Positions 6,524 through 27,196 of a DNA stretch of 31,892 bases are shown here, piece after piece. The position numbers and the translations under genes were made by a program. The stretch lies in the IMG/VR virus record IMGVR_UViG_2654587686_000018, positions 1 to 31,892 of that record. One strand, given 5' to 3'. Below the pieces are notes generated by a model that saw nothing but the letters and a program-made list of their open reading frames with translations, ran no database searches and had not been told where the DNA came from. Every line of letters begins with the position of its first letter. Position 1 is the first letter of the stretch. The stretch comes from a virus (Duplodnaviria > Heunggongvirae > Uroviricota > Caudoviricetes).

Positions 6524-6742
6524 ATGCTTGTGCAGGATTTGTTTATGGAAACTATCGCATTGCAGCGGATTGCGTTGTTTACCAGGTTGATCGCCAAAAG
6601 TAATTGCACTGGCTGTGAAAAGGACATTGCACTTGCCTGGCTAAGCGAGCTGACTTCAGATCTGGAAAGTAAACTTGATGAATATGAAAGTAAAAACCCC
6701 CGGGAAGGGGGCTTATCAGGCGGCGGGAGTCGCTTTCAGTAG
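6524..6742 (+). CDS. small SOS-regulated protein, candidate Tum-like antirepressor (start ATG 6524 or GTG 6530)
   Basis: ORF immediately downstream of the LexA box with a strong SD AGGAGG at 6518-6523. Function inferred from position and regulation, not sequence identity. Confidence 0.4.
   Translation: MLVQDLFMETIALQRIALFTRLIAKSNCTGCEKDIALAWLSELTSDLESKLDEYESKNPREGGLSGGGSRFQ
6692..6711 (-). terminator. putative intrinsic terminator for the Ogr-like gene
   Basis: CCCCC/GGGGG stem with 5-nt loop at 6697-6711 and an A-run at 6692-6696 (U-run on the minus transcript), 5 nt past the stop at 6716. Confidence 0.4.
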
Positions 6743-7035: not shown

Positions 7036-8097
7036 TCATGCCGCATCCTTATCCGTTGATTCTGTGTAACTTAAATCAAAGTGAAGGTGCAGACGTTCCG
7101 GTATTTCGGGATCGTTGTTCACGGCAGTCATAAACCGACGCTGAATAGGCGCTATCTCGCTTTTCTTGTAAATCCTTTCCGCCTTTTCAACATCCCCCAG
7201 GCCAGCTGTGTTCTGCGGAACAATTCCGGCCAGCCCTGCCGGAAAGCGGTGTGCGTTGAGAATGTCCTGTGCGCTGATGTTTTTGATGTTGGCAAATTCA
7301 TCTTTTGCAGAGATATCCCCCATTTCAATAAACTTGATCGCATCCCCATCCCCGCCTGGAATGTTCACCAGAATAGTGGAGAAGTTGCCGATACCTTTGC
7401 TGTCACGCAGCTGCTGTTCAATTTCTTCTTCCATTTCATCCGTCATACTGGGATCGCGCGTGTAGAGAATGCCGCCAGTATGGGCGCCGTTGTGGTAGTA
7501 ACGGCGGCGAAAAATCACGGCTTCGCTGTTAAGCAATGCAGAATGTACACCGCCGATATAGTCGGGCAGCCCGTAAATATGCTGTTGCGGGTCGTACATC
7601 TTGATAAAAATGATATCTTCCTGTGGCCATACCTGCGGTTCCCCGTCCTGCAATACCACATAATCGCCGGGCTGGTCTGTGGCGTTGTCCCTGACTTTAC
7701 GGCGGCGAATATACAGGCCGGGTAAAGGTTCCAGGGCAATCACATCCCCCCATCCGTTGCGGATTTTGCCAATCGCAATATCCCCGAAGGTTGTATAGTC
7801 AAACGCTGCGGCTTCCAGTTGGTCGTAAGTCAGGCCACCGCCCAGATAATCAGACACAATCATATTTTTCCGGGCGTGGATGATGCCGCCATGCTGACCG
7901 TTCAGATTGATAAGCTGTGCCAGTGCCAGCCGGTCAATCGGCTGGGTGAAGTGATCGGCGGCATTGTCGTACCAGATGTCGCGGTAATCCGTGCCGGTGG
8001 TCAGGACGGGTTCCGGTTTGCCGAATGTGATGATGCTCATTTTTTTGGACTTATCGCCGCGCGGGTTGCGCTTAACGAAGCGTTTTTTTTTACTCAT
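7036..8097 (-). CDS. portal protein (P2 gpQ-like)
   Basis: 353 aa; segments YGLPDYIGGVHSALLNSEAVIFRRRYYHNGAHTGG and DISAKDEFANIKNISAQDILNAHRFP resemble P2 Q. Stop overlaps the terminase gene. Confidence 0.9.
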   Translation of the reverse strand: MSKKKRFVKRNPRGDKSKKMSIITFGKPEPVLTTGTDYRDIWYDNAADHFTQPIDRLALAQLINLNGQHGGIIHARKNMIVSDYLGGGLTYDQLEAAAFDYTTFGDIAIGKIRNGWGDVIALEPLPGLYIRRRKVRDNATDQPGDYVVLQDGEPQVWPQEDIIFIKMYDPQQHIYGLPDYIGGVHSALLNSEAVIFRRRYYHNGAHTGGILYTRDPSMTDEMEEEIEQQLRDSKGIGNFSTILVNIPGGDGDAIKFIEMGDISAKDEFANIKNISAQDILNAHRFPAGLAGIVPQNTAGLGDVEKAERIYKKSEIAPIQRRFMTAVNNDPEIPERLHLHFDLSYTESTDKDAA

Positions 8098-9869
8098 GCA
8101 GCCTCTTTCCTTACACCCCAGCGGGATTTCGGTTTATTTTCGTAGTTGAGTGGTTCGTTATGCAGGGCGTGGGTAATCGCCCAGAAAGCCTCCGCGTGGC
8201 CTGTGTCCTGGCTGCGGTCAGCGACAAATGTCATGGCGTTACCGCTTTGCGTGGTGGTGCGGCGTACAGCCATAAAGCTGGCCGGGATCTCTTTCAGGTT
8301 TTTGTCCCATTCGATACGCTGGCTTTCCACCACGTCCGCCGCTTTCAGTACCAGCTGATTTTTCGTGTTCATGTCGTAACGAATGGCGACGGCCACGCGC
8401 ATGGCAAAATGCTGGATGTTGTCAAAAACACCCTGGCCAATACCGGTAACGTCCACTCCCAGATAGGTGAAGTTGTATTTTTTAAACAGGAGTTCGATCT
8501 GCCTGGCCTGATAGCGGAAGTTCATGCCCTTCCAGTTAATGACCTTCAGAACGCGGAATTTCTCTGCGGCGTACATCGGCGGGGCAATAATCACAAAACA
8601 CGACAAATCGCCGCTGCGTGCAGGGTCAAATCCTCCCCATACCGGCCTGTCACCAAATGGCCGCGCAGCGTCCGGGTTGTGATCCTGCCAGGTGTCCACC
8701 TCCACGCCGCAGGCTTCCAGGTCTGAAAAACTGAATACAGAATCCTTGCTGTCCACGAACACGCACATATAAAGCATGTTGAAGGTGGCGGTGTTGTAGC
8801 GGTTGCGCAGCTTCTCGATGTTGGCCAGGTTGAAGCCGCCCGCAATGGCATCCTCCATCGTGATGACATAGCGCCACTGACCATCCGGGCAAAGCCGTCC
8901 GCCGTTGCGCATTTCATCAAAAGACGGGAACTGAGCGGCCGCGCGTTTTTTGCTGCCCTGTTTCCATTCCTCACCCGTCCAGAACGGGTAGGCCTGGTGC
9001 GTTTTGGCCGATGGCGTTGAAAAGTAGGTGGTGCGCCATTTGTCATGGGTGGCCATTGCGCTGGCCACTTCGTTAAGCCTGGCGAAGTTAGGCACCCAGA
9101 AATATTCGTCACAGTACAGGTGGCCACTGTAGGACTGGGCCGTGTTTTTGTTGGTTGAGAGAAAACGCAGTTCAGCGCCGTTGCTGAGGCGGATCGGGTT
9201 GCCGGTCAGCGTGATGCCAAAATACTGTTCTGCAATGTTGACGATGTAAGACCGGAAGTATTCCGCCTGGACTTTGGAGGCAGACAGGAAGATTTGCGGA
9301 TCGCCTGTCATGACCGCGTTTTCAAAGGCTTCAAATGCAAAGTACCAGGTGGCACCGATCTGGCGGCTTTTAAGGATGTTCCTGACCTGCTGGCCAATAT
9401 TCCGGCGCAGGTGTTTCTGGTATTCAAAAAGATGTTCTTCCGCCCAGGTGTCAAAATCCGCCTGAGTCAGAGAAGAAATATCGTTTTTCCTGTTTTTGCG
9501 TTTGGGGCGCGGTTCATCGCTGTTGCTGTCCCGCGCAGCTGCCTGACTGTTACTCTGGCCGCTGGCCATTTTTTCTTTATGCTTATTGCTTTGAGCACGC
9601 AGCTTTGTCGCATGGGCAATCAGCATGTCCATTTCTTTCAGGTCGAGATCGGTTTTATTATCGCGGCTGGCCAGCAGCTGGTAGCGGCGTTCAATTGCCT
9701 CCTCTGTACTTTCAAAGCTGAGTAAATCCGCCCAGCTGTATTTCTCAGCCCAGTAGTAAACGATCCGCGCATTCGGCAGATTTAATTCTGATGCAATTTC
9801 TTTTGGCGTATAGCGGCGCAAATAAAGTGCGCGGACAACGCCTTTTAGTTCTTCTGAGTATTTAGCCAT
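8094..9869 (-). CDS. terminase large (ATPase) subunit (P2 gpP-like)
   Basis: 591 aa, adjacent to and overlapping the portal gene, divergent from the scaffold gene as in P2. Confidence 0.9.
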   Translation of the reverse strand: MAKYSEELKGVVRALYLRRYTPKEIASELNLPNARIVYYWAEKYSWADLLSFESTEEAIERRYQLLASRDNKTDLDLKEMDMLIAHATKLRAQSNKHKEKMASGQSNSQAAARDSNSDEPRPKRKNRKNDISSLTQADFDTWAEEHLFEYQKHLRRNIGQQVRNILKSRQIGATWYFAFEAFENAVMTGDPQIFLSASKVQAEYFRSYIVNIAEQYFGITLTGNPIRLSNGAELRFLSTNKNTAQSYSGHLYCDEYFWVPNFARLNEVASAMATHDKWRTTYFSTPSAKTHQAYPFWTGEEWKQGSKKRAAAQFPSFDEMRNGGRLCPDGQWRYVITMEDAIAGGFNLANIEKLRNRYNTATFNMLYMCVFVDSKDSVFSFSDLEACGVEVDTWQDHNPDAARPFGDRPVWGGFDPARSGDLSCFVIIAPPMYAAEKFRVLKVINWKGMNFRYQARQIELLFKKYNFTYLGVDVTGIGQGVFDNIQHFAMRVAVAIRYDMNTKNQLVLKAADVVESQRIEWDKNLKEIPASFMAVRRTTTQSGNAMTFVADRSQDTGHAEAFWAITHALHNEPLNYENKPKSRWGVRKEAA

Positions 9870-9923
9870 GCGGATAATTATGCCGTGGCTGTTATGAAAA
9901 AACGGTGGTGTTAATTCGCGTCT

Positions 9924-9948
9924 GTTCGGTAATACGTGATAACCGAAC
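9924..9948. promoter_or_regulatory. dyad-symmetric element in the divergent late promoter region (candidate Ogr-type activator site)
   Basis: GTTCGGT-N11-ACCGAAC between the leftward terminase and rightward scaffold genes; resembles the TGT-N12-ACA half-site arrangement of P2 late promoters. Confidence 0.35.
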
Positions 9949-10030
9949 TGTTCAGAATAAAGCGTGATGCGGTGGTGGTTTTATTTGGCAATAATTGATT
10001 TGCAGCGTCGGTGAATAAATCAGGGGGGAT

Positions 10031-10834
10031 ATGTCGCATTTAAAAACTGACTGGCTGTGTGTTGCTACCGAAGGGGATACCGTTGACGGCAGAGAGATTA
10101 AACGCCAGTGGATTATCGATATGGGGGAAACCTATGACTATAACCACTATGTCGCTTTGATCTGGCCTGAACACGAGAATGATTGCGGTAATTTTGGGGA
10201 GGTGCTGGAGGCCACCTGGCATGATGGCGATGACGGACTGGCGCGGCTTTACGTCAGCCTTTGCCCGAATATGCGTTTAATTTTCGCCAACCATGAAGAT
10301 CAGCTCCTGTTCTTCTCGATTGAACCGGATGAGAACTGGCGCGGTAGTGGGCGTACATACCTCAAGGGGCTGGCGGTAACAGATACTCCCGCCAGTGTTG
10401 GCACCACACGGCTGCGCTTTAGTAGTCGGCGCAAAAAATTATCTAAGCAGGGATATTACAGTTGTGTGATTTCCCGTGACGGAAAAATTAAACAGGACAT
10501 ACGCATGAAGAACTGGCAAAAATTGTTTGGTATTAAACCGAAGTTTGAAGATGAAACGCCGCCTGATGATACCGCGCAGGGTGATGATAAGTTACAGGCG
10601 CTGGCCAACGCGGTAAATGAACTGGAAGGGCGTGTGGCCAAAATTGAAAATCAGCTCAATGATGTTCAGGGTGATGTGGATACCATTGCGGAAGTGGTCG
10701 ATACCGAAGAATTTGCGGCTATTCGTGATAATGCAAAAGATATCGTTCAACGTTTTAACGATCTGGGTAATAAATCCACCCGTACACCGGGGCGTAAGAT
10801 TTCAGAAAAAGCGGGTAAGTTTAATTTCCTGTAA
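10031..10834 (+). CDS. capsid scaffolding protein (P2 gpO-like)
   Basis: 267 aa; VATEGDTVDGREI and GLAVTDTPASVGTTRLRFS resemble gpO. Confidence 0.85.
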   Translation: MSHLKTDWLCVATEGDTVDGREIKRQWIIDMGETYDYNHYVALIWPEHENDCGNFGEVLEATWHDGDDGLARLYVSLCPNMRLIFANHEDQLLFFSIEPDENWRGSGRTYLKGLAVTDTPASVGTTRLRFSSRRKKLSKQGYYSCVISRDGKIKQDIRMKNWQKLFGIKPKFEDETPPDDTAQGDDKLQALANAVNELEGRVAKIENQLNDVQGDVDTIAEVVDTEEFAAIRDNAKDIVQRFNDLGNKSTRTPGRKISEKAGKFNFL

Positions 10835-10895
10835 TACGTTCTGACGTTAATTAGTACAAAACATTTTTATTATCGCTTAATCGCGAGGGAGTTTT

Positions 10896-11918
10896 ATGCA
10901 CCTTAATAATCGTGCACGGGATTTACTGGATAAATATTCGAGTGGTATGGCGCAGCAGTTTGGTGCACGTGATACCAGTCGCTATTTCTCCCTGAATGAC
11001 CCGCAGGAAAATGCGCTGCGTCTGGCGCTGCTGGAGTCCGTGGAGTTCCTGAACATGATCACCTGTCTGGATGTGGACCAGCTGAGTGGCCAGGTGATTT
11101 CTGTCGGTTCCTCCGTGCTGCATACCGGCCGCAGTGAAAATGGCCGCTTTGTTCGTCAGGTTGGCGTGGACGGCAATGACTATTCACTGGTTGAAACGGA
11201 CAGCTGCGCCGCACTGCGCTGGGATCTGCTTTCGGTCTGGGCCAATGCCGGTAAGGACGAAAACGAGTTTTACAACCTGGTCCAGGCGTTTACCACACAG
11301 GCTTTTGCGCTGGATATGCTGCGTATTGGTTTTAACGGTAAGAGCCGTGCCAAAACGACGAATCCAACGGATAACCCGAACGGCGAAGATGTCAACATCG
11401 GCTGGCATGAGCGTATGAAAACGCTGCTGGGCGGTAATCAGATTATGACCGATCCGGTCGTGCTGGATGAAGCCGGGGATTACAAATCACTGGATGCAAT
11501 GGCTTCTGACCTGATTAACGCCAAGATTCCTGCCCAGTTCCGCAATGACCCGCGTCTGGTGGTTCTGGTCGGTGCCGATCTGGTTGCGGCTGAACAATAC
11601 CGGCTGTATCAGGCCGCAGACCGCCCGACTGAGAAAATTGCGGCGCAGATGCTGGGCAGTACCATTGCTGGCCGTCCTGCTGTTATCCCGCCGTTTATGC
11701 CGGGTAAACGTATGGTCGTTACGCCGCTTTCTAATCTGCATATCTACACCCAGCGCAACACCCGTATGCGTAAAGCGGAATTTGTTGAAGACCGTAAACA
11801 GTTCGAAAACAAATACCTGCGCAATGAAGGGTATGCGGTTGAGGTGCCGGAACTGTATGCGGCGATTGATGAATCTGCCGTAACCATCGGCAAGGTTTCC
11901 GAACCAGCAGAGGGCTGA
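10896..11918 (+). CDS. major capsid protein (P2 gpN-like)
   Basis: 340 aa, follows the scaffold gene; SD (gaggga) upstream. Confidence 0.9.
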   Translation: MHLNNRARDLLDKYSSGMAQQFGARDTSRYFSLNDPQENALRLALLESVEFLNMITCLDVDQLSGQVISVGSSVLHTGRSENGRFVRQVGVDGNDYSLVETDSCAALRWDLLSVWANAGKDENEFYNLVQAFTTQAFALDMLRIGFNGKSRAKTTNPTDNPNGEDVNIGWHERMKTLLGGNQIMTDPVVLDEAGDYKSLDAMASDLINAKIPAQFRNDPRLVVLVGADLVAAEQYRLYQAADRPTEKIAAQMLGSTIAGRPAVIPPFMPGKRMVVTPLSNLHIYTQRNTRMRKAEFVEDRKQFENKYLRNEGYAVEVPELYAAIDESAVTIGKVSEPAEG

Positions 11919-11921
11919 TAA

Positions 11922-12623
11922 ATGGCACTTTCTCCCGCGCAGCGTCACAGCCAGCGTATTGCGATGGAACAAAAGCTGAAACGCAGCCAGGCACTGGAAA
12001 CCACGGAAAGCATGCACTTGCTGATTAAGGCGCTGGAAACGGATGTGGAACATGCCCGTAACCTGCCAACAATCGCGGATCGCGTTGAGTTTAAACGGGA
12101 TGTGTTGCTGCCGCGCTGGACACCGACTGTGGAAGCGTATCTGGAAAGCGGGCAGGTGTACGCCAACCCGGTATTTGCCTGGTGTGTTATCTGGCTGTTT
12201 GACGTGGGCGATCTGGATAAGGCGCTGGACTGGGCTGACATTGCAATCAGCCAGCAGCAGGCAACCCCGGATCGGTTGCGCAGTAATTTTCCCACGTTCG
12301 TGGCCGATACGATGCTGGCCTGGGCGCAGGAAACATCCGGGCGCGGGGAAAGTGTTGAGCCGTATTTTTCCCGCACATTTGAGCGTGTCGCCAGTACCTG
12401 GCGGCTGCATGAACAGGTCACGGCCAAGTGGTTCAAGTTTGCCGGGCTGGAGCTGCTGCGCGGCGAAGATGGCCAGACAACGGCTGCGGGCGTGGACGAC
12501 ATTGAAACGCTGGAGAAAGCCGATCAACTGCTGGCCACCGCAGAAAAATACTATTTAAAAATCGGCGTCAGAACGGCACGGCAGACGATTGCCGCCCGTA
12601 TCCGAAAACTGACGCAGGGGTAA
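11922..12623 (+). CDS. terminase small (endonuclease) subunit (P2 gpM-like)
   Basis: 233 aa; N-terminus MALSPAQRHSQRIAMEQ resembles gpM; position after the capsid gene. Confidence 0.8.
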   Translation: MALSPAQRHSQRIAMEQKLKRSQALETTESMHLLIKALETDVEHARNLPTIADRVEFKRDVLLPRWTPTVEAYLESGQVYANPVFAWCVIWLFDVGDLDKALDWADIAISQQQATPDRLRSNFPTFVADTMLAWAQETSGRGESVEPYFSRTFERVASTWRLHEQVTAKWFKFAGLELLRGEDGQTTAAGVDDIETLEKADQLLATAEKYYLKIGVRTARQTIAARIRKLTQG

Positions 12624-12719
12624 AGACTACCGCAAGCCAGGCGGACGCGGTGGAGGGCAGAACACTCCGTGTGTCACTGTGCCGTGGAAACCGGTCAGTC
12701 CGCCTTTTTCGGGGGAATT

Positions 12720-13172
12720 ATGTTTAGCGGAAAACCGCTGGATTATCAGGATGAGCCGCTGACGAATAACGGGTTCTGGCCGGATCTGAATCTGAAGGAC
12801 TTTCAGGCGCAGCGGTCACTGCCAGCTGATATCGACGCGGACACCATCAGTCAGGCGCTGCTGGCCGCAGTCGCGGAGGTGAATGCCGAGCTGGAAAACG
12901 TGGAGGCCAGCTGGAAAGCAAAAGGCCACACGCTGGCAGCAGATGTTCCGGGCGTAAAAATGGGCGGGCTTAACAGTCTGTGTGCCCAGTACATGAAAGC
13001 GGTATTTGCCAGGGCAAAAGCGGATCTGCTGGGGGAGTTCGCCACTGTAGGGCGACGTGAAACCCATCCGGGACAGGAAAGTATGGAAACCCGCGCCGGG
13101 TTACTGGCTGAGGCTTCAGTGGTTATCCGCCGCATGAAGGGGCTTAAACGTGCAACGGTGAAAAAAGTATGA
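12720..13172 (+). CDS. head completion/stabilisation protein (P2 gpL-like)
   Basis: Position after gpM. In-frame ATG at 12720 (MFSGKPL) preferred over the track start at 12669. Confidence 0.6.
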   Translation: MFSGKPLDYQDEPLTNNGFWPDLNLKDFQAQRSLPADIDADTISQALLAAVAEVNAELENVEASWKAKGHTLAADVPGVKMGGLNSLCAQYMKAVFARAKADLLGEFATVGRRETHPGQESMETRAGLLAEASVVIRRMKGLKRATVKKV

Positions 13173-13675
13173 GCCAGACGCAGCTTGAGAGCCTGACTGC
13201 ATTTTTTCAGCAAAACGTGCCGCCGCGCGCCATGCAGTCATTTGACAGTGTGCTGGATGAAATGAAGTTCATCCCCGCCGCGAAGGATTACGGGCTGGGG
13301 CAGTACCGCCAGGCGGTGATTCGCTATGACGCGGTAATCAGCTGGCAGCGTTTCCCGTATCGCCTGTGTCCGCCGCAGTTGCTCATGTCGCTGCTGGCCG
13401 CGTGGCTGGATGAGGCTGACAGGGAATTACTGGATGAAGTCGGCCTGACTGAAGCTGAACCGGACTGGGATGTGTCAGTGGAGGATGAGGAAACCGCCAC
13501 CATTGTGCTGACGGTACCAATGGCGGAAGAACTGGTGATCAGGGAGGACGAAAACGGGGCGATCCCGTGGCGGGGGAAACGCTGGTCGCTGGTTAACCCT
13601 GAAGTCTGGATAGCGATCACCGCCAATATTTATGGCGTGGATGAAACCGGTGCGCCGGTAGGCGGTAACGAATGA
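13169..13675 (+). CDS. putative head-tail joining / tail completion protein
   Basis: 168-aa ORF translationally coupled (ATGA) between the head and tail genes. Family not recognised with confidence. Confidence 0.45.
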   Translation: MSQTQLESLTAFFQQNVPPRAMQSFDSVLDEMKFIPAAKDYGLGQYRQAVIRYDAVISWQRFPYRLCPPQLLMSLLAAWLDEADRELLDEVGLTEAEPDWDVSVEDEETATIVLTVPMAEELVIREDENGAIPWRGKRWSLVNPEVWIAITANIYGVDETGAPVGGNE

Positions 13676-14379
13676 TTGCCGGTGGTGAGCTGAATAAAAA
13701 ACAGCTGGCAGAGTTGCGTAAATCACTGGCCAGCATGGAGCTGCCGCCCAAAAAGCGCCAGCGTCTTATCTGGAGGCTGGCCAAATATGGCGTGATTGCT
13801 GCCGCAAAACGGCACGTTCGCAATCAGGAAGCACCGGATGGCCAGAAGTGGCCGGGGCGTAAAACGAAGCGCAAAGGGAAGATGCTGCGGAACCTGCCAA
13901 AACTGCTGCATATCCGTGAAATGCCAGAAATTCAGGCGGTACGGATTTATTTGCAGGGTGGTGGCTACCGGAACGGGGAAACGCCGTTACCGGCCGGGAC
14001 AGTCGGATATGCGCAACAAAACGGGATGCGCGTCAGTGTCAGCCGTCGCAGTCAGCCACGGAAGGTGGAGGCCGGAAAAATGGCCATGCCAGCCCAGGCC
14101 AAAAAACTGCGGGCGCTGGGGTACCGGGTACGCACCGGTAAACGCTGGAAAAAGCCCACGCTGGGCGAGTTAACCCAAACGATGCCATACAGCCGGGCGG
14201 GGCTACTGATTCGAAAACTCAGCGGTAAAGCGGTGAAAACCAGCTGGACAGTGGATCTTCCTGCCCGTGTATTTCTGGGCATGAGTGACGATGAATTTGA
14301 TAACGCGCTGGCGCGTCAGCTTCAGGCCATCGGCTTTGGCTGGGATGTTAAGGCGCAGGATATTAAGGGGAAAGCATGA
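13672..14379 (+). CDS. putative virion morphogenesis protein
   Basis: 235-aa basic protein, coupled to flanking genes; assignment by position only. Confidence 0.45.
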   Translation: MIAGGELNKKQLAELRKSLASMELPPKKRQRLIWRLAKYGVIAAAKRHVRNQEAPDGQKWPGRKTKRKGKMLRNLPKLLHIREMPEIQAVRIYLQGGGYRNGETPLPAGTVGYAQQNGMRVSVSRRSQPRKVEAGKMAMPAQAKKLRALGYRVRTGKRWKKPTLGELTQTMPYSRAGLLIRKLSGKAVKTSWTVDLPARVFLGMSDDEFDNALARQLQAIGFGWDVKAQDIKGKA

Positions 14380-15503
14380 CCTGGCCAAACGTGACCGTGA
14401 ACCAGGTAAACCAGCTGCTGGGTGAAACCAATGAAGTGGAACGCACGCTGCTGTTTATCGGTACGGGTACCAAAAATGTGGGGAAAACGCTGGCGGTGAA
14501 TGCCCAGAGTGATTTTGATGCACTTCTGGGAGAAGGGGAAAGCCCACTGAAAAGCGATGTTCTGGCGGCACTGGCAAACGCCGGTCAGAACTGGTGGGCA
14601 TTTATTCATGTGCTGCCCGCAGATGCTGAGGACGATGCCTGGGTGAAAGCGGTTCTGGCTGCACAGGTGGTGTGTTCGGTGGAAGGGGTAGTGCTGTCCA
14701 GTGATGTGACGGCCAAAGCCCAGGTGAATCAGGCTGCGACGTTACGATCCACGCTGATTTCCAAATATGGGCGCTGGGTGTGGTTCATCCTGGCCGTGCA
14801 GGGAATGCAGGAAGAAGAAGCCCTGGCGGATTACCTGACCCGTGTGTCTGCCATCCAGGACGGGATTGCAGAGAAGGCGGTGCAGCTGGTCCCGCGTCTG
14901 TGGGGAAATGAGCCGGGTGTGCTGGCTGGCCGTCTGTGCAGTCGTGCCGTGACTATCGCAGACAGTCCCGCCCGTGTGAAAACCGGGGCGCTGCTGAATC
15001 TGGGCAGTGATGAAATGCCGGTTGATGGTACTGGGGCAGTACTGGAGCTGGCCACACTTCAGGCACTGGAAGCGCAGCGTTTTAGTGTACCGATGTGGTA
15101 CCCGGATTATGACGGCTTTTACTGGGCTGACGGGCGAACGCTGGATGTGGAAGGCGGCGATTATCAGTCTATTGAAACCCTGCGTGTTGCCGATAAAGCG
15201 GCGCGTCGTGTACGTCTGCTGGCTATCAGCAAAATTGCGGATCGCTCACTGAACAGCACACCGGGCAGCATCGCTGCACACCAGACGTTGTTTGCACGTC
15301 CACTGCGTGAAATGTCCACAGCGGCCAGTATCAATGGCGTGTCATTTCCGGGGGAAGTGAAGCCGCCGCAGGACGGTGACGTGACCATTGTCTGGAAGAA
15401 CAAAAAGACGGTGGATATTTATCTGGTGGTACGCACCTGGGAAGTTCCGCTGCAAATCACCATCAGTCTGTTACTGGATGCCAGTCTGGAGGGCGCTGCA
15501 TGA
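14376..15503 (+). CDS. putative tail sheath-like structural protein
   Basis: 375 aa, first large gene of the tail block, followed by a tube-sized gene. Not P2 FI-like by sequence. Confidence 0.45.
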   Translation: MTWPNVTVNQVNQLLGETNEVERTLLFIGTGTKNVGKTLAVNAQSDFDALLGEGESPLKSDVLAALANAGQNWWAFIHVLPADAEDDAWVKAVLAAQVVCSVEGVVLSSDVTAKAQVNQAATLRSTLISKYGRWVWFILAVQGMQEEEALADYLTRVSAIQDGIAEKAVQLVPRLWGNEPGVLAGRLCSRAVTIADSPARVKTGALLNLGSDEMPVDGTGAVLELATLQALEAQRFSVPMWYPDYDGFYWADGRTLDVEGGDYQSIETLRVADKAARRVRLLAISKIADRSLNSTPGSIAAHQTLFARPLREMSTAASINGVSFPGEVKPPQDGDVTIVWKNKKTVDIYLVVRTWEVPLQITISLLLDASLEGAA

Positions 15504-15955
15504 GTAAACGTATTTCGGGTATGTCGTTTGATACCTATCTTGATGGCGATCTGATCCATATCGAGAAAATCACACTCGATATCACGGATAACAGCGCCGC
15601 CGCCCAGACCCGTGGTGTGCCGGATGGCCATGTTGATGGTGATGTGGCCGCAGAGGGAGAAATTGAAGTCAGTTCCAAAGTGCTGGGCGTACTGACGGCT
15701 AAAGCCCGCGCCGCAGGTTCGTGGCGTGGTATTCCGCCGCTGGATTTTCTTTTCTATGCCAAAGCGGGCAGCGAAGAAATGAAAGTGGAATCGTTCGGTA
15801 ACAAACTCCAGCTGAGTAATCTGCTGGATATCGATCCAAAGGGCGGCGGTGTGGCGACGCACAAAATCAAATATTTTGTGACCAGTCCCAAGTTCGTGAA
15901 CATCAACGGTGTGCCGTATCTGGAAGCGGAAGCCACGGAAAACCTGATCGGATAA
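15500..15955 (+). CDS. putative tail tube-like protein
   Basis: 151 aa immediately after the sheath-like gene with overlapping start. Confidence 0.45.
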   Translation: MSKRISGMSFDTYLDGDLIHIEKITLDITDNSAAAQTRGVPDGHVDGDVAAEGEIEVSSKVLGVLTAKARAAGSWRGIPPLDFLFYAKAGSEEMKVESFGNKLQLSNLLDIDPKGGGVATHKIKYFVTSPKFVNINGVPYLEAEATENLIG

Positions 15956-15965
15956 GGAAGCCGGA

Positions 15966-16268
15966 ATGCAGGAACATGAAAAGAGCCTTTATTCACTGCT
16001 GATTATGGGGGCGCTCATTGCTGTTGCGAAGGTGCTGGCCAGTGATGATCCCATTACACCGCGCCTGTTTATCAGCCGTGTGATCCTGGGCAGTTTTGTT
16101 TCAGTCATCGCTGGCGCGGTGCTGATTCAAATCCCGGAGGCCAGCCCGCTGGCAATTCAGGGACTGGGGGCAGCGCTGGGTATTGCAGGTTATCAGGCTG
16201 TTGAAATGTGGCTGCGCAGACGTGCAGCGGGAAAGAAGAACGGGAGCGTGACAAATGACCCTGAGTGA
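15966..16268 (+). CDS. holin
   Basis: 100 aa with three hydrophobic segments and a charged C-terminus (RRRAAGKKNG); directly precedes the endolysin. Confidence 0.65.
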   Translation: MQEHEKSLYSLLIMGALIAVAKVLASDDPITPRLFISRVILGSFVSVIAGAVLIQIPEASPLAIQGLGAALGIAGYQAVEMWLRRRAAGKKNGSVTNDPE

Positions 16269-16596
16269 AAAGCAGCAGCTGTTTACCGTCATGGTGGCCA
16301 ACCTGATCCACTGGGCAGAAGAACGCGGCTACCGGCTGACGTTTGGTGAAGCGTACCGCACCCCGGAACAGGCGGCGCTGAACGCGAAGAAGGGCAGCGG
16401 TATTTCGAACAGTCTGCACACCCAGCGTCTGGCCGTGGATTTTAACCTGTTTGTGAATGGCCAGTACCAGACCCGTACAGAGGACTATCTGCCGCTGGGT
16501 GAATACTGGGAATCACTGGGCGGAAGCTGGGGTGGGCGCTTCAAATCCAGACCGGATGGTAATCATTTCAGCCTGGAACATAACGGGGTGCGCTGA
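16255..16596 (+). CDS. endolysin, peptidase M15-type (zinc D-Ala-D-Ala carboxypeptidase fold)
   Basis: 113 aa with SLHTQRLAVDFNLF (H-x6-D) and a C-terminal HFSLEH motif typical of M15 peptidase endolysins. Confidence 0.8.
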   Translation: MTLSEKQQLFTVMVANLIHWAEERGYRLTFGEAYRTPEQAALNAKKGSGISNSLHTQRLAVDFNLFVNGQYQTRTEDYLPLGEYWESLGGSWGGRFKSRPDGNHFSLEHNGVR

Positions 16597-16976
16597 TGAG
16601 TCACGCGCAGTGGCTGGTTGTGGTGGCGCTGGCGTTTGTCTGGGGCTGGCTGACAGCTGACTGGCGGCGCGACAGTCTGGAGCTGGCAATCAATACGGCG
16701 GCGCAGGTGGCGGGTAATGAATCGCGAAAGGCTATGCAGGGCATTGCCAGTGATTCCGCCAGGGAGCTGGAAGATAAACTGGAGGCGCTAAGAAATGCGC
16801 AACCGCGAGAGATCCGCACGGAAGTGCTTAAGCCGGTTTTTACTAACAGGTGCCTGTCTGATGAGTTTGTCAGCATGTACAACAGCGCCGTCGCCGGTAC
16901 CGAACGTGCGTTATCAGGAAAACCTGAAAACACGATGCGCCACGCAGCTGCCGCGCCTGAACGGGGCAACAGGTAA
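16596..16976 (+). CDS. i-spanin (Rz-like)
   Basis: N-terminal hydrophobic anchor (WLVVVALAFVWGWL) followed by a charged, helical periplasmic domain; position after the endolysin. Confidence 0.65.
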   Translation: MSHAQWLVVVALAFVWGWLTADWRRDSLELAINTAAQVAGNESRKAMQGIASDSARELEDKLEALRNAQPREIRTEVLKPVFTNRCLSDEFVSMYNSAVAGTERALSGKPENTMRHAAAAPERGNR

Positions 16977-17094
16977 AGATGCAGCGGAACTGCTGACTGT
17001 TTACCTTGAAATATATGGCCAGTGTGCGGCGCGTCATAATCAATTAGTTGATGAAATTAATTTAAGAGAGCGTGTTATTTATGGAACAAATTAA
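16795..17094 (+). CDS. o-spanin (Rz1-like outer-membrane lipoprotein), overlapped architecture
   Basis: +1-frame ORF starting inside the i-spanin gene. Signal peptide ending in lipobox LSAC. Runs past the i-spanin stop. Confidence 0.55.
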   Translation: MRNRERSARKCLSRFLLTGACLMSLSACTTAPSPVPNVRYQENLKTRCATQLPRLNGATGKDAAELLTVYLEIYGQCAARHNQLVDEINLRERVIYGTN

Positions 17095-17338
17095 ACTGAG
17101 TGTCTGTGGGGTTGATATTGTTTTTGAACCTAATCAGACTGCTTATAATAAACTGATTAATGAAATGGCAATGGATAATAAAGTTGCCCCTGCAAATAAT
17201 TATCTGATGCGTATTGTTACCCCAGAAACGAAAGAAGCACTGATTGACGTATTAAAACGTCCGGGTGCAGCACTGCAACTGGTCAGTAAGGTTAATGATA
17301 TTTACGCGCCGGAACTGGAGATTGAAGTAAAAAACTGA
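17072..17338 (+). CDS. tail assembly chaperone (0-frame product, gpE/G-like)
   Basis: 88-aa ORF immediately upstream of the tape measure gene; ends just after a slippery heptamer. Confidence 0.6.
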   Translation: MLFMEQIKLSVCGVDIVFEPNQTAYNKLINEMAMDNKVAPANNYLMRIVTPETKEALIDVLKRPGAALQLVSKVNDIYAPELEIEVKN

Positions 17339-17529
17339 CAAAGCGAGTCCATGATATTGAACGAAATGGACTCGAACAGTATTTAATTCTCCGTCGTCAT
17401 TATTTACCACATGGTCAGGATTCTGTTGACGATATTGCTGCCGCTATATGGCTGGATAACCGTCACTGGGAATATACGGGAATAGCCGTGGCTAATGGCG
17501 TGGCTAAAGCATTTAAAGGCACTGAATGA
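17072..17529 (+). CDS. tail assembly chaperone -1 frameshift fusion product (gpE+E' / G-T-like)
   Basis: Slippery heptamer A_AAA_AAC at 17329-17335 is in register with the 0-frame codons. The -1 frame is closed by TGA at 17323-17325 just upstream and open from 17335 to a stop at 17527-17529, which overlaps the tape measure ATG. That frame contains no ATG. Confidence 0.55.
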
Positions 17530-19586
17530 AACAGTTAGATTTTACATTAAGCCTTATTGATAAATTGTCCCGCCCGTTAAAACAGGCGCAGGGCAACGTA
17601 ACGGGCTTTGCTGAAAAATCAAAAGAAGCCTTTATGCAGATTGGTGGCGGCGTTCTGGCGCTGGCGGGTACAGGGATGGCCATTAAAGGTGCGCTGATGC
17701 CCGCCATTGAAATGTATGACGCGCTGAATGATGCGGCTGCAAAAGGGATCGATGATTCTGCGCTTAAGGCCGTTCAGCGTGATGCGCTGCGCTTCAGTAC
17801 AACCTACGGTGCCAGTGCGGTGGAGTTCGTCCAGTCCACGGAAAGTATAAATGCGTCCATTGCCGGGCTGACCGGGAATGAACTGCCGAAAGTGACGAAA
17901 GTCGCCAATACCCTGGCGTTTGCGCTCAAATCCACCGCAGCGGAAACCGCTGAGTTTATGGGGCAGATGTTCGGTAACTTCTCCGCCGATGCCAACCGGC
18001 TGGGAAAGGTTGAGTTTGCTGAACAGCTGGCCGGAAAAATGGTGTACATGCGCAAAACCTTTGGCACGGAAATGGCCGCTATCAAGGATTTGATGGAAGG
18101 GGCGCGCGGTGTGGGTACCAACTACGGCGTGGGGCTGGATGAACAGCTGGCCGTGCTGGGACAGCTTCAGCGGACACTGGGAACGGAAGCCAGCAGCGCT
18201 TATGAAGGCTTTATGACCGGAGCCATTGAGGGCGGTAAAAAGCTGGGGCTGTCCTTCACGGATTCCACCGGCAAAATGCTGTCCATGCCTGAAATGCTGA
18301 TCAAGTTACAGGGCAAGTATGGCAAAAGCCTGGAAGGGAATCTGAAAGCCCAGGCTGAACTGGATGCGGCATTTGGTGACAGTTCGGCGGTGGTGAAACA
18401 CCTTTATGGCAATGTGGCGCTGCTTCAGCGCAATATCACAGAACTGGGCAGTACTGATGGTCTGAAGCGTACCCAGGAAATGGCGCAGAAAATGGTGAAG
18501 CCGTGGGATCGGTTTGTCGCAATCCTGAAGGCTATCCAGACCGTCATTGGACTGACGCTGATCCCGGTGCTCTATCCGGTTCTGAACCGACTGGCCGATA
18601 TGGGGCAGACTTTTGCCCGCTGGATGCAGCTATTTCCCAACATTGCGCGTGTTGTTGGTTATGCGGCAATGGCCTTACTCAGCTTTGCGGCTGTGGGCGC
18701 AGTCGCCAACATCGTGATGGGTGTCTCCAGATTCATCATGATGGGGTTGCGTGGGATCTGGGTGGCGCTGACGGCTGTCACGAAGGTTCACACCGCTGCT
18801 GTCTGGCTGGGGAACATTGCCGTGGTTGCCTGGAACGCCACGCTGAAATTTCTGCGCGGTACGTTGCTGGCGGTTCGTATGGCGGCAATGATGGCCGGGA
18901 TAGGTATCAATCTGATGAGCTGGCCGATCCTGCTGGTGATTGGTGCCGTTGCCTTACTTGCTGCCGGTTGCTGGCTGCTGATTAAACACTGGGACACGGT
19001 AAAGAACGCGGTCATGGATACCGCTGCATTTCAGACATGCGCCAGGGGGGTGGCATGGCTTGCCGGGGTGTTTGCTTCAGCCTGGCAGTTTATCAGCGAA
19101 GGCTGGAACAGTTTTATTTCCATGCTGACCGGGTTTTCTCCTTCCCAGGCATTAAGCGGGCTGGCCACGGGCATTGTGTCATTGTTTGATAATGTCTGGT
19201 TGTCCGTTAAAAACGGCTTTCTGAAATCATGGAACTGGATTGTAAGTAAATTAAATAACATTCCGGGTGTTGATATTGAACTGGCGGGTGCGGCTTCACC
19301 GGATATCGCTAAAAATGAAGCGGCAGTATTTCCAGTGCCGGAATTGAAGCAATCAGCGAAAGCTGACGGTGCTCTTGCTGCGGTGACACAAAATAATTAC
19401 GCCCCAGACCGGCTTTTAACCGGAGGCGAATTAAAAGGCATTGAAAAGGGCGGGATCACCAAAACGATTAACAGTAATGCCAAATCCGTAACCGACAATA
19501 GCCGGAAAATTGACACGGTAAACATTTATCCGAAAGAAATGATTACACCCGGTCAGTTAATGGAATTTCAGGAGCTGGGCGCATGA
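17526..19586 (+). CDS. tail tape measure protein
   Basis: 686 aa, alanine/glycine-rich with a central hydrophobic block; follows the chaperone frameshift pair. Confidence 0.85.
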   Translation: MKQLDFTLSLIDKLSRPLKQAQGNVTGFAEKSKEAFMQIGGGVLALAGTGMAIKGALMPAIEMYDALNDAAAKGIDDSALKAVQRDALRFSTTYGASAVEFVQSTESINASIAGLTGNELPKVTKVANTLAFALKSTAAETAEFMGQMFGNFSADANRLGKVEFAEQLAGKMVYMRKTFGTEMAAIKDLMEGARGVGTNYGVGLDEQLAVLGQLQRTLGTEASSAYEGFMTGAIEGGKKLGLSFTDSTGKMLSMPEMLIKLQGKYGKSLEGNLKAQAELDAAFGDSSAVVKHLYGNVALLQRNITELGSTDGLKRTQEMAQKMVKPWDRFVAILKAIQTVIGLTLIPVLYPVLNRLADMGQTFARWMQLFPNIARVVGYAAMALLSFAAVGAVANIVMGVSRFIMMGLRGIWVALTAVTKVHTAAVWLGNIAVVAWNATLKFLRGTLLAVRMAAMMAGIGINLMSWPILLVIGAVALLAAGCWLLIKHWDTVKNAVMDTAAFQTCARGVAWLAGVFASAWQFISEGWNSFISMLTGFSPSQALSGLATGIVSLFDNVWLSVKNGFLKSWNWIVSKLNNIPGVDIELAGAASPDIAKNEAAVFPVPELKQSAKADGALAAVTQNNYAPDRLLTGGELKGIEKGGITKTINSNAKSVTDNSRKIDTVNIYPKEMITPGQLMEFQELGA

Positions 19587-19912
19587 GTGAGAGTCTTTAT
19601 ATTGATTTGCTTATTCAGGGCGGTGATTTTGTTCTGAATACCGGATATGAACCTGAACTGTGTAATAACCGTAAAAGTATCGGACAGGACATTATTCATT
19701 CCATTATTGAAAGCGGGCTGGCAACGGAACTGATTGCCGAACGCAGCCCAACAATGCGGGCGGATATTTTTACCCGTATGGAATTACTGATTGAAGATGA
19801 TGAACGGATTATTCCGGGAACAGTGGAAATCAGTGAGGAAAGCCAGAAACGATTATGGATAACGGCCAGCACCTATGACTTTGGCGGCATATCTGCGCAG
19901 GTGGATTTATGA
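19583..19912 (+). CDS. putative baseplate protein (gpW-like position)
   Basis: 109 aa, coupled between the tape measure and the baseplate J-like gene. Confidence 0.45.
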   Translation: MSESLYIDLLIQGGDFVLNTGYEPELCNNRKSIGQDIIHSIIESGLATELIAERSPTMRADIFTRMELLIEDDERIIPGTVEISEESQKRLWITASTYDFGGISAQVDL

Positions 19913-21093
19913 CGGAAAAACCGCAGGTTGATTTTGAGGAAGTGGTGAAGGCCAGCGGGATGCCGGTGACGGAATCTGAAGTGCGGGATCGCTTTAATGC
20001 GATTGCGGCTGAGGAGGGCATGATCACTAACACATCCCGTATGTCACCGTTCTGGCGGTTAATTACGGCCATTGTGACTGCGCCGGTGATGTGGCTGAAA
20101 GAGGTTCTGGTGTCCACGGTGCTGGCCAATATGTTTGTGGCCACGGCCAGCGGGAGCATGCTGCGCCTGTTGGCCTGGGCGGTGAACGTGACGGCGAAAC
20201 CTGCCAGCGCTGCGCAGGGTGTGATCCGTTTCTTTAAGGAAGATGCCAGAGCCGTTGTGACGGTGAAGGCCAGAACGGTTATCCAGACTGAACGCATCAA
20301 CGGCAGGGTGTACGAACTGGCGACCACGGGCGATGTGGTGATCCCTTCCGGCACGGACAGCGCATTGCTGCCGGTGAAAGCCACCGGAACCGGGGGAGCC
20401 TATAACCTTGCGCCAGGGTATTACCGCATTTTGCCTGTGGCCGTGGATGGTATCAGCCATGTGGCCAGCGAGGAAAACTGGCTGACGGTGCCGGGTGCCG
20501 ATGAAGAAAGCGATGATGAACTGCGTGAACGCTGCCGCAACCAGTTCAATCTGGTGGGCAATTACCACACGGATGCGGTTTACCGTTCAATGATTGCCGG
20601 TGTTGCCGGGCTGAGTATTGACCGGATTTTCTTTGAGCATGAAGCGCCGAGGGGACCGGGTACCGCAAACGCCTATCTGTTGCTGGACAGTGGGGTGGCT
20701 TCCGCACCGTTCGTGAATGCGGTGAATGATTACATCAACACGCAGGGACATCACGGCCACGGCGACGATATGCAGTGTTACGCCATGCCGGAAACCCGTC
20801 ACGATCTGGCTGTGACGGTGTTCGTCAGAAATCTGGCCAACCTGACAGATGACGAACGGAACAGCCTGAAGGCTGGCATTGAAAACATGATCCGCTGTGC
20901 TTTTCGTGAAAACGCTGATTTTGACGTCAGAAAGACGTGGCCATATTCGCGGTTCTCGTTTTCTCAGTTGGGGGGGGAGATCCACAAAACCTTTGCGCTG
21001 GCGGATTCGCTGTCCTTTTCACTGGGTGACATTACCAGTGAGCTGAATGTGCCGCGTCTGAAGTCACTGGTAGTGAGTCTTGAGAATGAATGA
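19909..21093 (+). CDS. baseplate assembly protein, J-like
   Basis: 394 aa in the W-J-I-fibre order typical of P2-type baseplates; weak sequence resemblance to gpJ. Confidence 0.55.
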   Translation: MTEKPQVDFEEVVKASGMPVTESEVRDRFNAIAAEEGMITNTSRMSPFWRLITAIVTAPVMWLKEVLVSTVLANMFVATASGSMLRLLAWAVNVTAKPASAAQGVIRFFKEDARAVVTVKARTVIQTERINGRVYELATTGDVVIPSGTDSALLPVKATGTGGAYNLAPGYYRILPVAVDGISHVASEENWLTVPGADEESDDELRERCRNQFNLVGNYHTDAVYRSMIAGVAGLSIDRIFFEHEAPRGPGTANAYLLLDSGVASAPFVNAVNDYINTQGHHGHGDDMQCYAMPETRHDLAVTVFVRNLANLTDDERNSLKAGIENMIRCAFRENADFDVRKTWPYSRFSFSQLGGEIHKTFALADSLSFSLGDITSELNVPRLKSLVVSLENE

Positions 21094-21673: not shown

Positions 21674-21683
21674 GGAATTTTTT

Positions 21684-27185: not shown

Positions 27186-27196
27186 CCATCCCATCA

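What the first reader, a model, noticed from the sequence alone, without database searches (positions are those of the whole stretch)
9870..10030. Dyad-symmetric element between the divergent terminase and scaffold operons
GTTCGGT-N11-ACCGAAC at 9924-9948 sits about 55-75 bp from each start codon. It resembles the partially symmetric upstream element of P2 late promoters bound by Ogr-family activators, and may be a shared activator site driving both late operons.
Basis: partly seen in the sequence, partly recalled or inferred. Interest (0 to 1): 0.35.

Follow-up and report, generated by a model that had tools for sequence, protein, structure and literature searches.

The report
Late-promoter control element of a P2-like prophage
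The small palindrome between the terminase and scaffold genes of this P2-like prophage is real and strongly conserved. It is best read as the inner halves of two back-to-back late promoters, probably switched on by the phage's own Ogr-type zinc-finger activator: a variant of a known phage control scheme, not a new one.

Summary
The dyad GTTCGGT-N11-ACCGAAC is exactly at 9924-9948. A 7-bp inverted repeat alone is not beyond chance (P about 0.12), but conservation shows it is functional. TTCGG and CCGAA are near-invariant in 57 distinct relatives while the spacer between them varies, and CCGAA persists in five enterobacterial phage genera plus Vibrio K139 and Haemophilus HP2.

The window is an HP1/K139/ESSI-2-type P2-like prophage. 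It encodes an Ogr/Delta zinc-finger protein (6716-6985, minus strand) just downstream of the portal gene.

P2's own record annotates one activator site shared by pP and pO at the equivalent place. However, this element does not match the P2 consensus TGT-N12-ACA.

Comparative geometry also argues against one shared dimer site. Each half sits a fixed 47 nt from its own -10-like hexamer (CATAAT 9882-9877, AATAAT 9990-9995). Each is followed 10 nt later by a second unit (GCGAAT, CAGAAT). The distance between the two halves varies among relatives (N12, N13, N14, N24).

I read it as two mirrored, promoter-specific activator sites at about -63 to -44. They drive terL-portal-ogr leftward and a 17-kb head-tail-lysis operon rightward. 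Binding and transcription start sites are inferred, not shown. New variant of a known kind, modest interest.

The parts
9924..9948 (.). The reported dyad GTTCGGT-N11-ACCGAAC, centre 9936. It is the inner pair of a four-unit mirror-symmetric array.
   Evidence: exact, unique in the window. (half-sites conserved, spacer variable).
9925..9929 (-). Unit 1 of the leftward (pP) arm: CCGAA on the minus strand, predicted -59 to -55 of pP.
   Evidence: 91-100% conserved in 57 spacers. Lies 47 nt from CATAAT.
9914..9919 (-). Unit 2 of the pP arm: GCGAAT on the minus strand, 10 nt downstream of unit 1, predicted -49 to -44.
   Evidence: TTCG at 9915-9918 is 98-100% conserved. Pooled arm consensus CcGAAT.
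9943..9947 (+). Unit 1 of the rightward (pO) arm: CCGAA, preceded by ATAA, predicted -59 to -55 of pO.
   Evidence: Invariant in all 57 spacers and in nine phages of five genera. Lies 47 nt from AATAAT.
9953..9958 (+). Unit 2 of the pO arm: CAGAAT, 10 nt downstream of unit 1, predicted -49 to -44.
   Evidence: CAGAAT is 96-100% conserved. Relatives have CCGAA-N5-CCGAA here.
9877..9882 (-). Predicted -10 hexamer of pP (CATAAT on the minus strand). It ends 7 nt before the terL ATG, so the predicted start is about 9869-9871.
   Evidence: 9875-9887 is 93-100% conserved. In ev239 the hexamer stays at offset 46-48 from the unit although the ATG is about 45 nt further away.
9990..9995 (+). Predicted -10 hexamer of pO (AATAAT, with G at -14). 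Predicted start is about 10002, giving a leader of about 29 nt to the scaffold ATG.
   Evidence: 100% conserved in 57 spacers. xATAxT conserved across genera. Offset 47.
8094..9869 (-). Large terminase (gpP-like), first gene of the leftward late operon.
   Evidence: Pfam Terminase_6N, Terminase_6C and Terminase_5.
7036..8097 (-). Portal protein (gpQ-like), second gene of the leftward operon.
   Evidence: ORF. Annotated as portal in the 86-91% identical phage ESSI2_ev129.
6716..6985 (-). Ogr/Delta-family zinc-finger protein (89 aa from the internal ATG with a GGAG 8 nt upstream). It is the candidate late activator and the last gene before the terminator.
   Evidence: PF04606 E = 9e-20 over the whole model. 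CX2CX22CX4C. 100% identical to the ev129 'transcriptional regulator'. Start context.
6694..6714 (-). Terminator-like hairpin with T-run directly after the ogr-like stop codon. Marks the end of the leftward operon.
   Evidence: 8 pairs, 5 G-C.
10031..27185 (+). Rightward late operon: scaffold gpO (10031-10834), capsid, small terminase, head completion, tail, lysis, tape measure, baseplate and fibre genes. All are on one strand with only short gaps.
   Evidence: Same gene order annotated in ev129, YenM324, SI7 and K139.
27196..27226 (+). Terminator-like hairpin with T-rich tail, 11 nt after the last tail gene. Marks the end of the rightward operon.
   Evidence: 8 pairs, 6 G-C. K139 has an annotated terminator T39 at the same place.

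Best explanation
The dyad is the inner part of a compact, mirror-symmetric control region for the only two late promoters of this HP1/K139/ESSI-2-type P2-like prophage.

Each promoter has its own upstream arm with these parts:
- Unit 1, (A)TAWCCGAA, at about -63 to -55.
- Unit 2, nCGAAT or CAGAAT, 10 nt downstream at about -49 to -44.
- Only a residual TG at -34/-33 in place of a -35 hexamer.
- G at -14.
- A good -10 hexamer.

The two arms point away from each other, and their unit-1 copies, 13 bp apart, make up the reported palindrome.

The phage's Ogr/Delta-family zinc-finger protein (6716-6985, minus strand) most likely binds these units. From the position where P2 Ogr acts (about -55), it would recruit RNA polymerase to both promoters. 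Leftward transcription would give terL-portal-ogr, a positive feedback loop ending at the terminator 6714-6694. Rightward transcription would give the 17-kb head-tail-lysis operon, ending at the terminator 27196-27216.

Shown here: the sequence, its conservation, the fixed geometry, the presence and family of the activator gene, and the absence of other copies of the motif. Inferred: the transcription start sites, binding by the Ogr-like protein, and the RNA polymerase contact.
For: 1. Conservation. Half-sites are near-invariant and the spacer varies in 57 distinct spacers. CCGAA is invariant in nine phages of five genera. The same units occur in Vibrio K139 (TTCGGATAT-N6-ATATCCGAA plus CCGAA-N5-CCGAA) and in Haemophilus HP2, whose record flags the repeat as 'most likely contains promoters for late genes'.

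2. Geometry. A -10-like hexamer lies 46-48 nt from a CCGAA unit in 23 of 24 arms of 13 phages. Both arms qualify in 89 of 114 distinct spacers. Only 22 of 325 CCGAA occurrences do so genome-wide, and those 22 include the true arms.

3. The inter-arm distance varies (N12 x1, N13 x54, N14 x11, N24 x23) while the arm-to-hexamer distance does not.

4. The composite CCGAA-N5-nnGAW-N32/33-(-10) occurs only in this spacer, once per strand, in the window and in the complete genomes of ev129, YenM324 and K139. SI7 has it once.

5. The activator gene is present. It matches PF04606 and has CX2CX22CX4C. Its first 60 residues are almost invariant in 74 of 80 related loci. The same subfamily and the same ogr-portal-terL | scaffold gene order occur in K139, HP2, F108 and phiO18P.

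6. There is no full sigma-70 promoter in the spacer.

7. P2 precedent: an annotated activator site sits between pP and pO, centred 55.5 bp from each start site. The arms here cover the equivalent positions.
Against: - No start site has been mapped. The -10 assignments, and therefore all positions, are predictions.
- No binding data exist for this Ogr subfamily, and no solved structure.
- P2-type Ogr proteins recognise an inverted repeat. A direct-repeat mode for this subfamily would be a departure from that, and it is only inferred.
- Within the window's own clade the inter-arm spacing is nearly constant (N13 or N14). N24 differs from N13/N14 by about one helical turn, so some coupling between the arms, or even one oligomer spanning both, is not excluded.
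- The covariation test between protein and site was uninformative.
- The sequences compared are related, so conservation counts are not independent events.
Confidence: 0.55

Rival explanations
1. The dyad is one shared site: a dimer of the Ogr-like activator binds TTCGG-N13-CCGAA and activates both divergent promoters from a position centred about 66 bp upstream of each start, one helical turn further than in P2.
For: - P2's record annotates one site for both pO and pP, and Smp131 was described the same way.
- Both halves are conserved and exactly equidistant (54 bp) from the two -10-like hexamers.
- The spacing is N13 or N14 in 65 of 89 spacers, and N24 is about one helical turn more.
- In some Haemophilus phage contigs both halves changed together (CCGAA to CCTAC), keeping the symmetry.
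Against: - Near-identical Haemophilus phages carry N12 or N24 with the same arms and the same activator protein. A rigid dimer site would not tolerate that.
- Hybrids with CCGAA on one side and CCTAC on the other exist.
- SI7 lacks the pP-side half but keeps the pO arm.
- Each half has a second, directly repeated unit 10 nt toward its own promoter. A simple dimer site does not explain this.
Confidence: 0.25
2. The conserved units are bound by some regulator other than the Ogr-like protein: the 186-type CI repressor, the CII-like or Cox-like proteins of the phage, or a host factor. The element would then be an operator or an architectural site rather than the late activator's target.
For: Nothing here shows which protein binds. 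The phage encodes a 186-type CI (507-1064) and a CII-like protein (1447-1965).
Against: - The motif is absent from the CI/Cox switch region and from everywhere else in the genome. A repressor or CII site would be expected there.
- The element is conserved in phages of Escherichia, Yersinia, Vibrio and Haemophilus, together with the Ogr-like gene and the same gene order. Their immunity regions differ (SI7 lacks an annotated CII).
- Its position upstream of -35-less promoters fits an activator.
Confidence: 0.08
3. The palindrome is a chance feature or a nucleic-acid hairpin (terminator or RNA element) with no protein-binding role.
For: A 7-nt inverted repeat is expected in 12% of shuffled spacers. 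The DNA hairpin is only marginally more stable than shuffles (-6.7 kcal/mol, z = -1.8).
Against: - Conservation follows the pattern of a protein site: half-sites fixed, loop free.
- Relatives keep the half-site sequences, not complementarity through compensatory change, and hybrids break the pairing.
- There is no T-run. The element lies upstream of both predicted start sites, so it would not be transcribed.
- No Rfam family matches there.
Confidence: 0.02

Closest known systems
Bacteriophage P2 pP/pO late promoter pair with its shared Ogr-binding site (TGT-N12-ACA class; also 186 B, P4 Delta, PSP3 Pag)
   Same: - Same genomic place, between the divergent terminase (P) and scaffold (O) operons.
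- An Ogr/Delta-family zinc-finger protein is encoded by the phage.
- The promoters lack a usable -35.
- The upstream element covers about -64 to -45.
- The activator gene lies at the end of a late operon just before a terminator.
   Different: - No TGT-N12-ACA.
- The units are TAWCCGAA-like and directly repeated within each arm.
- The predicted start sites are about 132 bp apart rather than 111 bp, leaving room for two sites.
- There are only two late promoters rather than four.
- The activator is 28% identical to P2 Ogr over 39 residues and has a C-terminal extension.
- The ogr gene follows the portal gene rather than gene D.
Late-gene repeat region of Haemophilus phages HP1/HP2 and the orf16/orf17 spacer of Vibrio phage K139
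   Same: - Same gene order (ogr-like, portal, terL | scaffold ... one long operon).
- Same Ogr subfamily: 57% identity to K139 orf13 and 37% to the HP2 ORF.
- Same TAWCC(GAA) units in mirrored arms.
- Same 47-nt unit-to-hexamer distance.
   Different: - The inter-arm spacing differs: N13 here, N14 in K139, N24 or N12 in HP2-like phages.
- HP2 has a 21-bp perfect inverted repeat and an extra degenerate inner copy.
- The second unit here is degenerate (CAGAAT, GCGAAT).
- In those phages the region is only annotated as 'putative' or 'most likely'. I found no functional study in the searchable library.
Class I activator-dependent sigma-70 promoters (for example CAP at -61.5), as a mechanistic analogy
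   Same: The activator sits upstream of a promoter with a poor -35. An A/T-rich stretch lies between the activator site and the -35 region, where the RNA polymerase alpha C-terminal domain could dock. P2 Ogr is known, from established knowledge, to act through the alpha subunit.
   Different: This is an analogy only. No protein homology exists and nothing here tests the RNA polymerase contact.

Membership tests
P2-type Ogr-dependent late promoter | The phage encodes an Ogr/Delta-family C4 zinc-finger activator (CX2CX22CX4C). | tested here: met
   PF04606 E = 9e-20, 70.8 bits against a cut-off of 26.3, full model length. C8-X2-C11-X22-C34-X4-C39 in the 89-aa protein.
P2-type Ogr-dependent late promoter | The upstream element matches the consensus TGT-N12-ACA. 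| tested here: not met
   None in 9870-10030. Window-wide there are 8 matches against 8.6 expected, all outside the P-O spacer. No similarity to the four P2 late promoters aligned on their annotated start sites.
P2-type Ogr-dependent late promoter | The element is centred about 55 bp upstream of the transcription start. | tested here: inconclusive
   Start sites are not mapped. With starts predicted from the conserved -10 hexamers, the dyad centre is at -66 for both promoters. Each arm (unit 1 plus unit 2) spans -63 to -44, centred near -53. P2 sites are centred at -55.5.
P2-type Ogr-dependent late promoter | The promoter has a -10 region but no functional -35. | tested here: met
   The consensus scan finds no promoter with both hexamers in the spacer. 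The pooled arms show only tG at -34/-33, and xATAAT at -12 to -7.
P2-type Ogr-dependent late promoter | The element is located between the divergent P (terminase) and O (scaffold) operons. | tested here: met
   The P2 record annotates 'activator binding site; pO, pP promoters'.
P2-type Ogr-dependent late promoter | The activator binds the element, and transcription depends on it and on the RNA polymerase alpha subunit. | not testable with these tools
   Needs gel shift or footprinting, reporter fusions and rpoA mutants.
HP1/HP2-K139-type late control region | Gene order ogr-like, portal, terL | scaffold, with a single long rightward structural and lysis operon. | tested here: met
   Window. 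K139, HP2, F108, YenM324 and SI7.
HP1/HP2-K139-type late control region | Mirrored arms of TAWCC(GAA) units in the terL-scaffold spacer, with a -10-like hexamer 47 nt from the unit. | tested here: met
Intrinsic terminator or structured RNA | A stable G+C-rich hairpin followed by a T-run, or a match to an RNA family, within a transcribed region. | tested here: not met
   The stem is 7 bp with an 11-nt loop, -6.7 kcal/mol, z = -1.8. There is no T-run, no terminator call there and no Rfam match. The element lies upstream of both predicted start sites.

The most novel reading that the evidence does not exclude
The HP1/K139/ESSI-2 branch of the Ogr/Delta family may read DNA differently from P2 Ogr. 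It would bind head-to-tail to direct repeats of TAWCCGAA spaced one helical turn apart at about -59 and -49, not to an inverted repeat. If so, the whole morphogenesis and lysis programme (about 20 kb) of these phages is fired from one 130-bp bidirectional module made of two such sites placed back to back, with the leftward transcript starting at or next to the terL AUG (leaderless).
Probability: 0.35. Interest if true: 0.45.

Novelty: new variant of a known kind. Interest (0 to 1): 0.33.

Why it matters
It gives a concrete, testable definition of the late-promoter element for a widespread group of P2-related prophages of Escherichia, Salmonella, Cronobacter, Yersinia, Vibrio and Haemophilus. 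The classical TGT-N12-ACA rule does not apply to this group, so late promoters and satellite-phage targets cannot be found with the P2 consensus.

Because all structural and lysis genes hang on this one 130-bp region, it is the single switch for particle production. That is useful for annotating these prophages, for predicting which satellites could exploit them, and for building inducible bidirectional expression modules.

It does not change the general picture of P2-type late control.

Tried and rejected
1. I looked for further copies of the dyad or of the arm motif in the window and in four complete relatives, to define a regulon. None exists outside the terL-scaffold spacer. A recurrent weak hit at 12708-12732 is only the conserved ribosome-binding site and start of the head-completion gene. 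A hit at 27155-27209 is the loop of the operon terminator.

2. I searched for TGT-N12-ACA. It occurs at chance level and is absent from the spacer.

3. I tested covariation between the Ogr-like protein and its presumed site in the Haemophilus clade. The same protein sequences occur with CCGAA, CCTAC and hybrid arms, so the test is uninformative.

4. A possible CCGAA pair upstream of the ogr-like gene (7110-7095, minus strand) has no -10-like hexamer at the conserved distance. I judged it to be chance.

5. The hairpin or RNA reading was rejected.

6. No solved structure of a relative exists. I could not obtain the classical P4 Delta binding paper.

7. Literature searches found no description of this motif. 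The library lacks most subscription journals, so the original HP2 and K139 papers could not be checked.

8. phiO18P and F108 do not show a clean CCGAA dyad: F108 has GATAACCG, GATAGCCG and CATATCCG direct repeats. I did not pursue them.

Full report
**Observation.** The sequence reads GTTCGGT (9924-9930), 11 nt, ACCGAAC (9942-9948), centred on 9936. It lies in the 161-bp spacer between two divergent start codons. One is the large terminase at 9869 on the minus strand (Pfam Terminase_6N, Terminase_6C, Terminase_5). The other is a gpO-type scaffold or protease at 10031 on the plus strand (PF05929). The exact dyad, and the looser TTCGG-N12-15-CCGAA, occur only here in the window. As a bare palindrome it is unremarkable. 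About 12% of dinucleotide shuffles of the spacer contain a perfect inverted repeat of 7 nt or more with a 0-20 nt loop, and the window has 64 such repeats. The case for function rests on comparison with relatives.

**What the window is.** Bases 1340-25000 are 86% identical (91% across the terL-scaffold region) to Escherichia phage ESSI2_ev129, a member of Peduoviridae, genus Quadragintavirus. The gene order is:
- a 186-type CI repressor and a CII-like protein at the left;
- replication genes;
- then, on the minus strand, an Ogr/Delta zinc-finger gene (6716-6985), portal (7036-8097) and terL (8094-9869);
- on the plus strand from 10031, an uninterrupted series of head, tail, lysis, tape-measure, baseplate and fibre genes up to 27185.

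A terminator-like hairpin follows the ogr-like gene at 6714-6694. Another follows the last tail gene at 27196-27216. The same layout is annotated in Yersinia phage YenM324, Salmonella phage SI7, Vibrio phage K139, Haemophilus phage HP2 and Pasteurella phage F108. This is the HP1/K139 branch of P2-like phages, not the P2/186 branch. The element occurs once per genome in 27 of 5426 complete E. coli genomes.

**Conservation.** In nine phages of five genera the right half, TTATAWCCGAA, is invariant. The left TTCGG is kept in all but the most distant, SI7. In 57 distinct spacers from 80 related viral contigs (scaffold identity 74-99%), TTCGG scores 1.6-2.0 bits per position and CCGAA 2.0 bits. The middle of the spacer between them scores 0.7-1.3 bits. 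That is the signature of a protein-binding site rather than of a hairpin. Other conserved blocks are:
- TAATTATGCCGTG (9875-9887);
- AAAAAACGGYGG (9897-9908);
- TTCG (9915-9918);
- CAGAATAAA (9953-9961);
- TGC (9968-9970);
- GCAATAAT (9988-9995).

**Architecture.** Read outward from 9936, the two strands are near mirror images. Each has ACCGAAC at positions 7-13, GAAT(A/T)AA at 20-26 and ATAATT at 56-61 (sequence). The composite CCGAA-N5-nnGAW-N32/33-(-10-like hexamer) occurs exactly twice in the window, once on each strand, and nowhere else. The same holds in the complete genomes of ev129, YenM324 and K139, while SI7 has one copy.

In 13 representative phages from Escherichia, Cronobacter, Yersinia, Salmonella, Vibrio and Haemophilus, 23 of 24 arms have a hexamer with A2, T6 and at least 4 of 6 matches to TATAAT at 46-48 nt from a CCGAA unit. 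The exception has an extra inner copy, and its second copy is at 47. Of 114 distinct spacers, 89 have such an arm on both strands. The background is 22 of 325 CCGAA occurrences in five genomes, a count that includes the true arms.

In ev239 the hexamer keeps its distance to the unit although the terL ATG is about 45 nt further away. The block is therefore tied to the element, not to the start codon.

I take CATAAT (9882-9877, minus strand) and AATAAT (9990-9995) as the -10 hexamers of pP and pO. The predicted start sites are then about 9870 and about 10002. On that numbering the pooled arm consensus is:
- ATAwCCGAA at -63 to -55;
- CcGAAT at -49 to -44;
- tG at -34/-33;
- G at -14;
- xATAAT at -12 to -7.

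No promoter with both hexamers is found in the spacer.

**One shared site or two?** The distance from each unit to its own hexamer is fixed, but the distance between the two inner units is not. It is N13 in 54 spacers, N14 in 11, N24 in 23 and N12 in one. Haemophilus phage contigs with identical scaffold and Ogr-like proteins carry either N24 or N12 with otherwise identical arms. SI7 keeps the pO arm without a recognisable pP-side partner.

Every arm has a second, directly repeated unit one helical turn toward its own promoter:
- CCGAA-N5-CCGAA in K139, YenM324 and ev239;
- ATATCCGAAGATATCCAAA in HP2;
- CCGAA-N5-CAGAA and CCGAA-N5-GCGAA here.

These facts fit two promoter-specific sites placed back to back better than one dimer site.

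They do not exclude coupling. N24 is about one turn more than N13/N14. In some Haemophilus contigs both arms changed together from CCGAA to CCTAC, although hybrids also exist.

**The likely activator.** The ORF at 6716-7039 matches the Ogr/Delta zinc-finger model over its full length (E = 9e-20). The likely start is the internal ATG at 6985, which has a GGAG 8 nt upstream, giving 89 aa with C-X2-C-X22-C-X4-C. It is only 28% identical to P2 Ogr over 39 residues. It is 100% identical to the ev129 protein, 68% to YenM324, 59% to SI7, 57% to K139 orf13 and 37% to the HP2 ORF. Its first 60 residues are almost invariant in 74 of 80 related loci, while the C-terminal tail varies. The six loci without a hit include at least four (L024, L067, L068, L077) with under 1 kb of sequence upstream of the scaffold gene, too little to reach the ogr position; the other two were not identified. 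Its position, last in the leftward operon before a terminator, parallels P2, where ogr shares the terminator of the F late operon. This would give positive feedback.

**Comparison with P2.** The P2 reference record annotates start sites at 3016 (P, minus strand) and 3127 (O, plus strand), with a single 'activator binding site; pO, pP promoters' at 3057-3087. That site is centred 55.5 bp from both starts. The separate sites for pV and pF lie at the same distance. The published consensus is TGT-N12-ACA, and a shared pP'/pO' site was also proposed for phage Smp131 (PMC3931495).

In sequence it fails: there is no TGT-N12-ACA here, and no similarity to the four P2 promoters. In geometry, the dyad centre would sit at -66, one helical turn further out than in P2. 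Each arm, however, covers -63 to -44, which is the stretch covered by the P2 element (-64 to -47). This is a second reason to regard the arm, not the dyad, as the functional equivalent of the P2 site.

**Mechanism proposed.** After replication the Ogr-like protein accumulates. It binds the TAWCCGAA-type units of both arms and recruits RNA polymerase to two promoters that lack a -35. By analogy with P2 Ogr, this would be through the alpha subunit; that point is established knowledge for P2 and is not tested here. The terL-portal-ogr operon and the 17-kb structural and lysis operon are then switched on together.

The steps shown here are the conserved anatomy and the presence of the activator gene. 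Binding, start sites and the polymerase contact are inferred.

**Novelty.** The searchable literature describes the K139 ogr homologue's position (PMC8537503) and the P2 consensus, but not this motif. The HP2 record merely flags a repeat that 'most likely contains promoters for late genes'. The original HP2 and K139 papers are not in the library, so prior description cannot be ruled out. I rate this as a new variant of a known kind, of modest interest.

Noticed in passing
window 9866-9887 (minus strand): The predicted pP -10 hexamer CATAAT ends 7 nt before the terL ATG, and there is no Shine-Dalgarno sequence, so the terL mRNA is predicted to be leaderless or nearly so. The same 6-7 nt gap is seen in ESSI-2, YenM324, K139 and L089. 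In ev239 the leader is long and has AGGAAG. The P2 record annotates the V operon start site on the first base of the V coding sequence, a precedent.
   Followed up: partly
window 6694-7039 (minus strand): The Ogr-like gene is the last gene of the leftward late operon. It lies 50 bp after the portal gene and directly before a terminator-like hairpin. A TAAAAT hexamer at 7023-7018 could be its own promoter. This implies late positive feedback plus a separate early or middle promoter, as for P2 ogr.
   Followed up: partly
window 29115-29193 (minus strand): There is a full-length RybB small RNA gene (Rfam RF00110, 105 bits) in what looks like the bacterial flank. A 561-aa transporter-like ORF (29273-30958) and the start of a glutaredoxin-like ORF (31635-31892) lie next to it. 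The right prophage end should therefore lie between 27230 and 29115. No tRNA gene is present in the window.
   Followed up: no
window 27291-28981: Between the late-operon terminator and RybB there are small ORFs not shared with the phage structural module. They are a 110-aa protein with a signal-peptide-like N-terminus (27291-27623, plus strand) and three minus-strand ORFs. They may be cargo (moron) genes or host genes.
   Followed up: no
window 9904-9919 and 9974-9989: There is a 16-nt direct repeat, 81% identical: GGTGGTGTTAATTCGC and GGTGGTTTTATTTGGC, 70 bp apart. It overlaps the spacer regions of the two predicted promoters. Its orientation is direct, so it is not part of the mirror symmetry. 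It is unexplained.
   Followed up: no
L120, L121, L123, L130, L140 (Haemophilus phage contigs), about 90-150 bp upstream of the scaffold gene: Near-identical HP1/HP2-like phages differ by a 12-bp insertion or deletion between the arms (N24 versus N12). Some have CCGAA replaced by CCTAC in both arms, keeping a perfect 21-bp inverted repeat, and others are hybrids. The invariant core there is ATATCC.
   Followed up: partly
L093 (Salmonella phage SI7) 20696-20730, minus strand: There are three tandem CCGAA-N5-nnGAW matches at about 10-bp spacing, in the non-coding stretch between the last tail gene and the integrase gene. They may be recombination-arm sites or another target of the same protein.
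   Followed up: no
L001 (ESSI2_ev129) 16332-17045: The RefSeq annotation of the ev129 scaffold gene starts at an internal codon (237 aa). The N-terminus conserved with the window protein extends 30 codons further, so that record's terL-scaffold gap is overstated (251 versus about 161 bp). From memory, the P2 gpO N-terminus agrees with this.
   Followed up: partly
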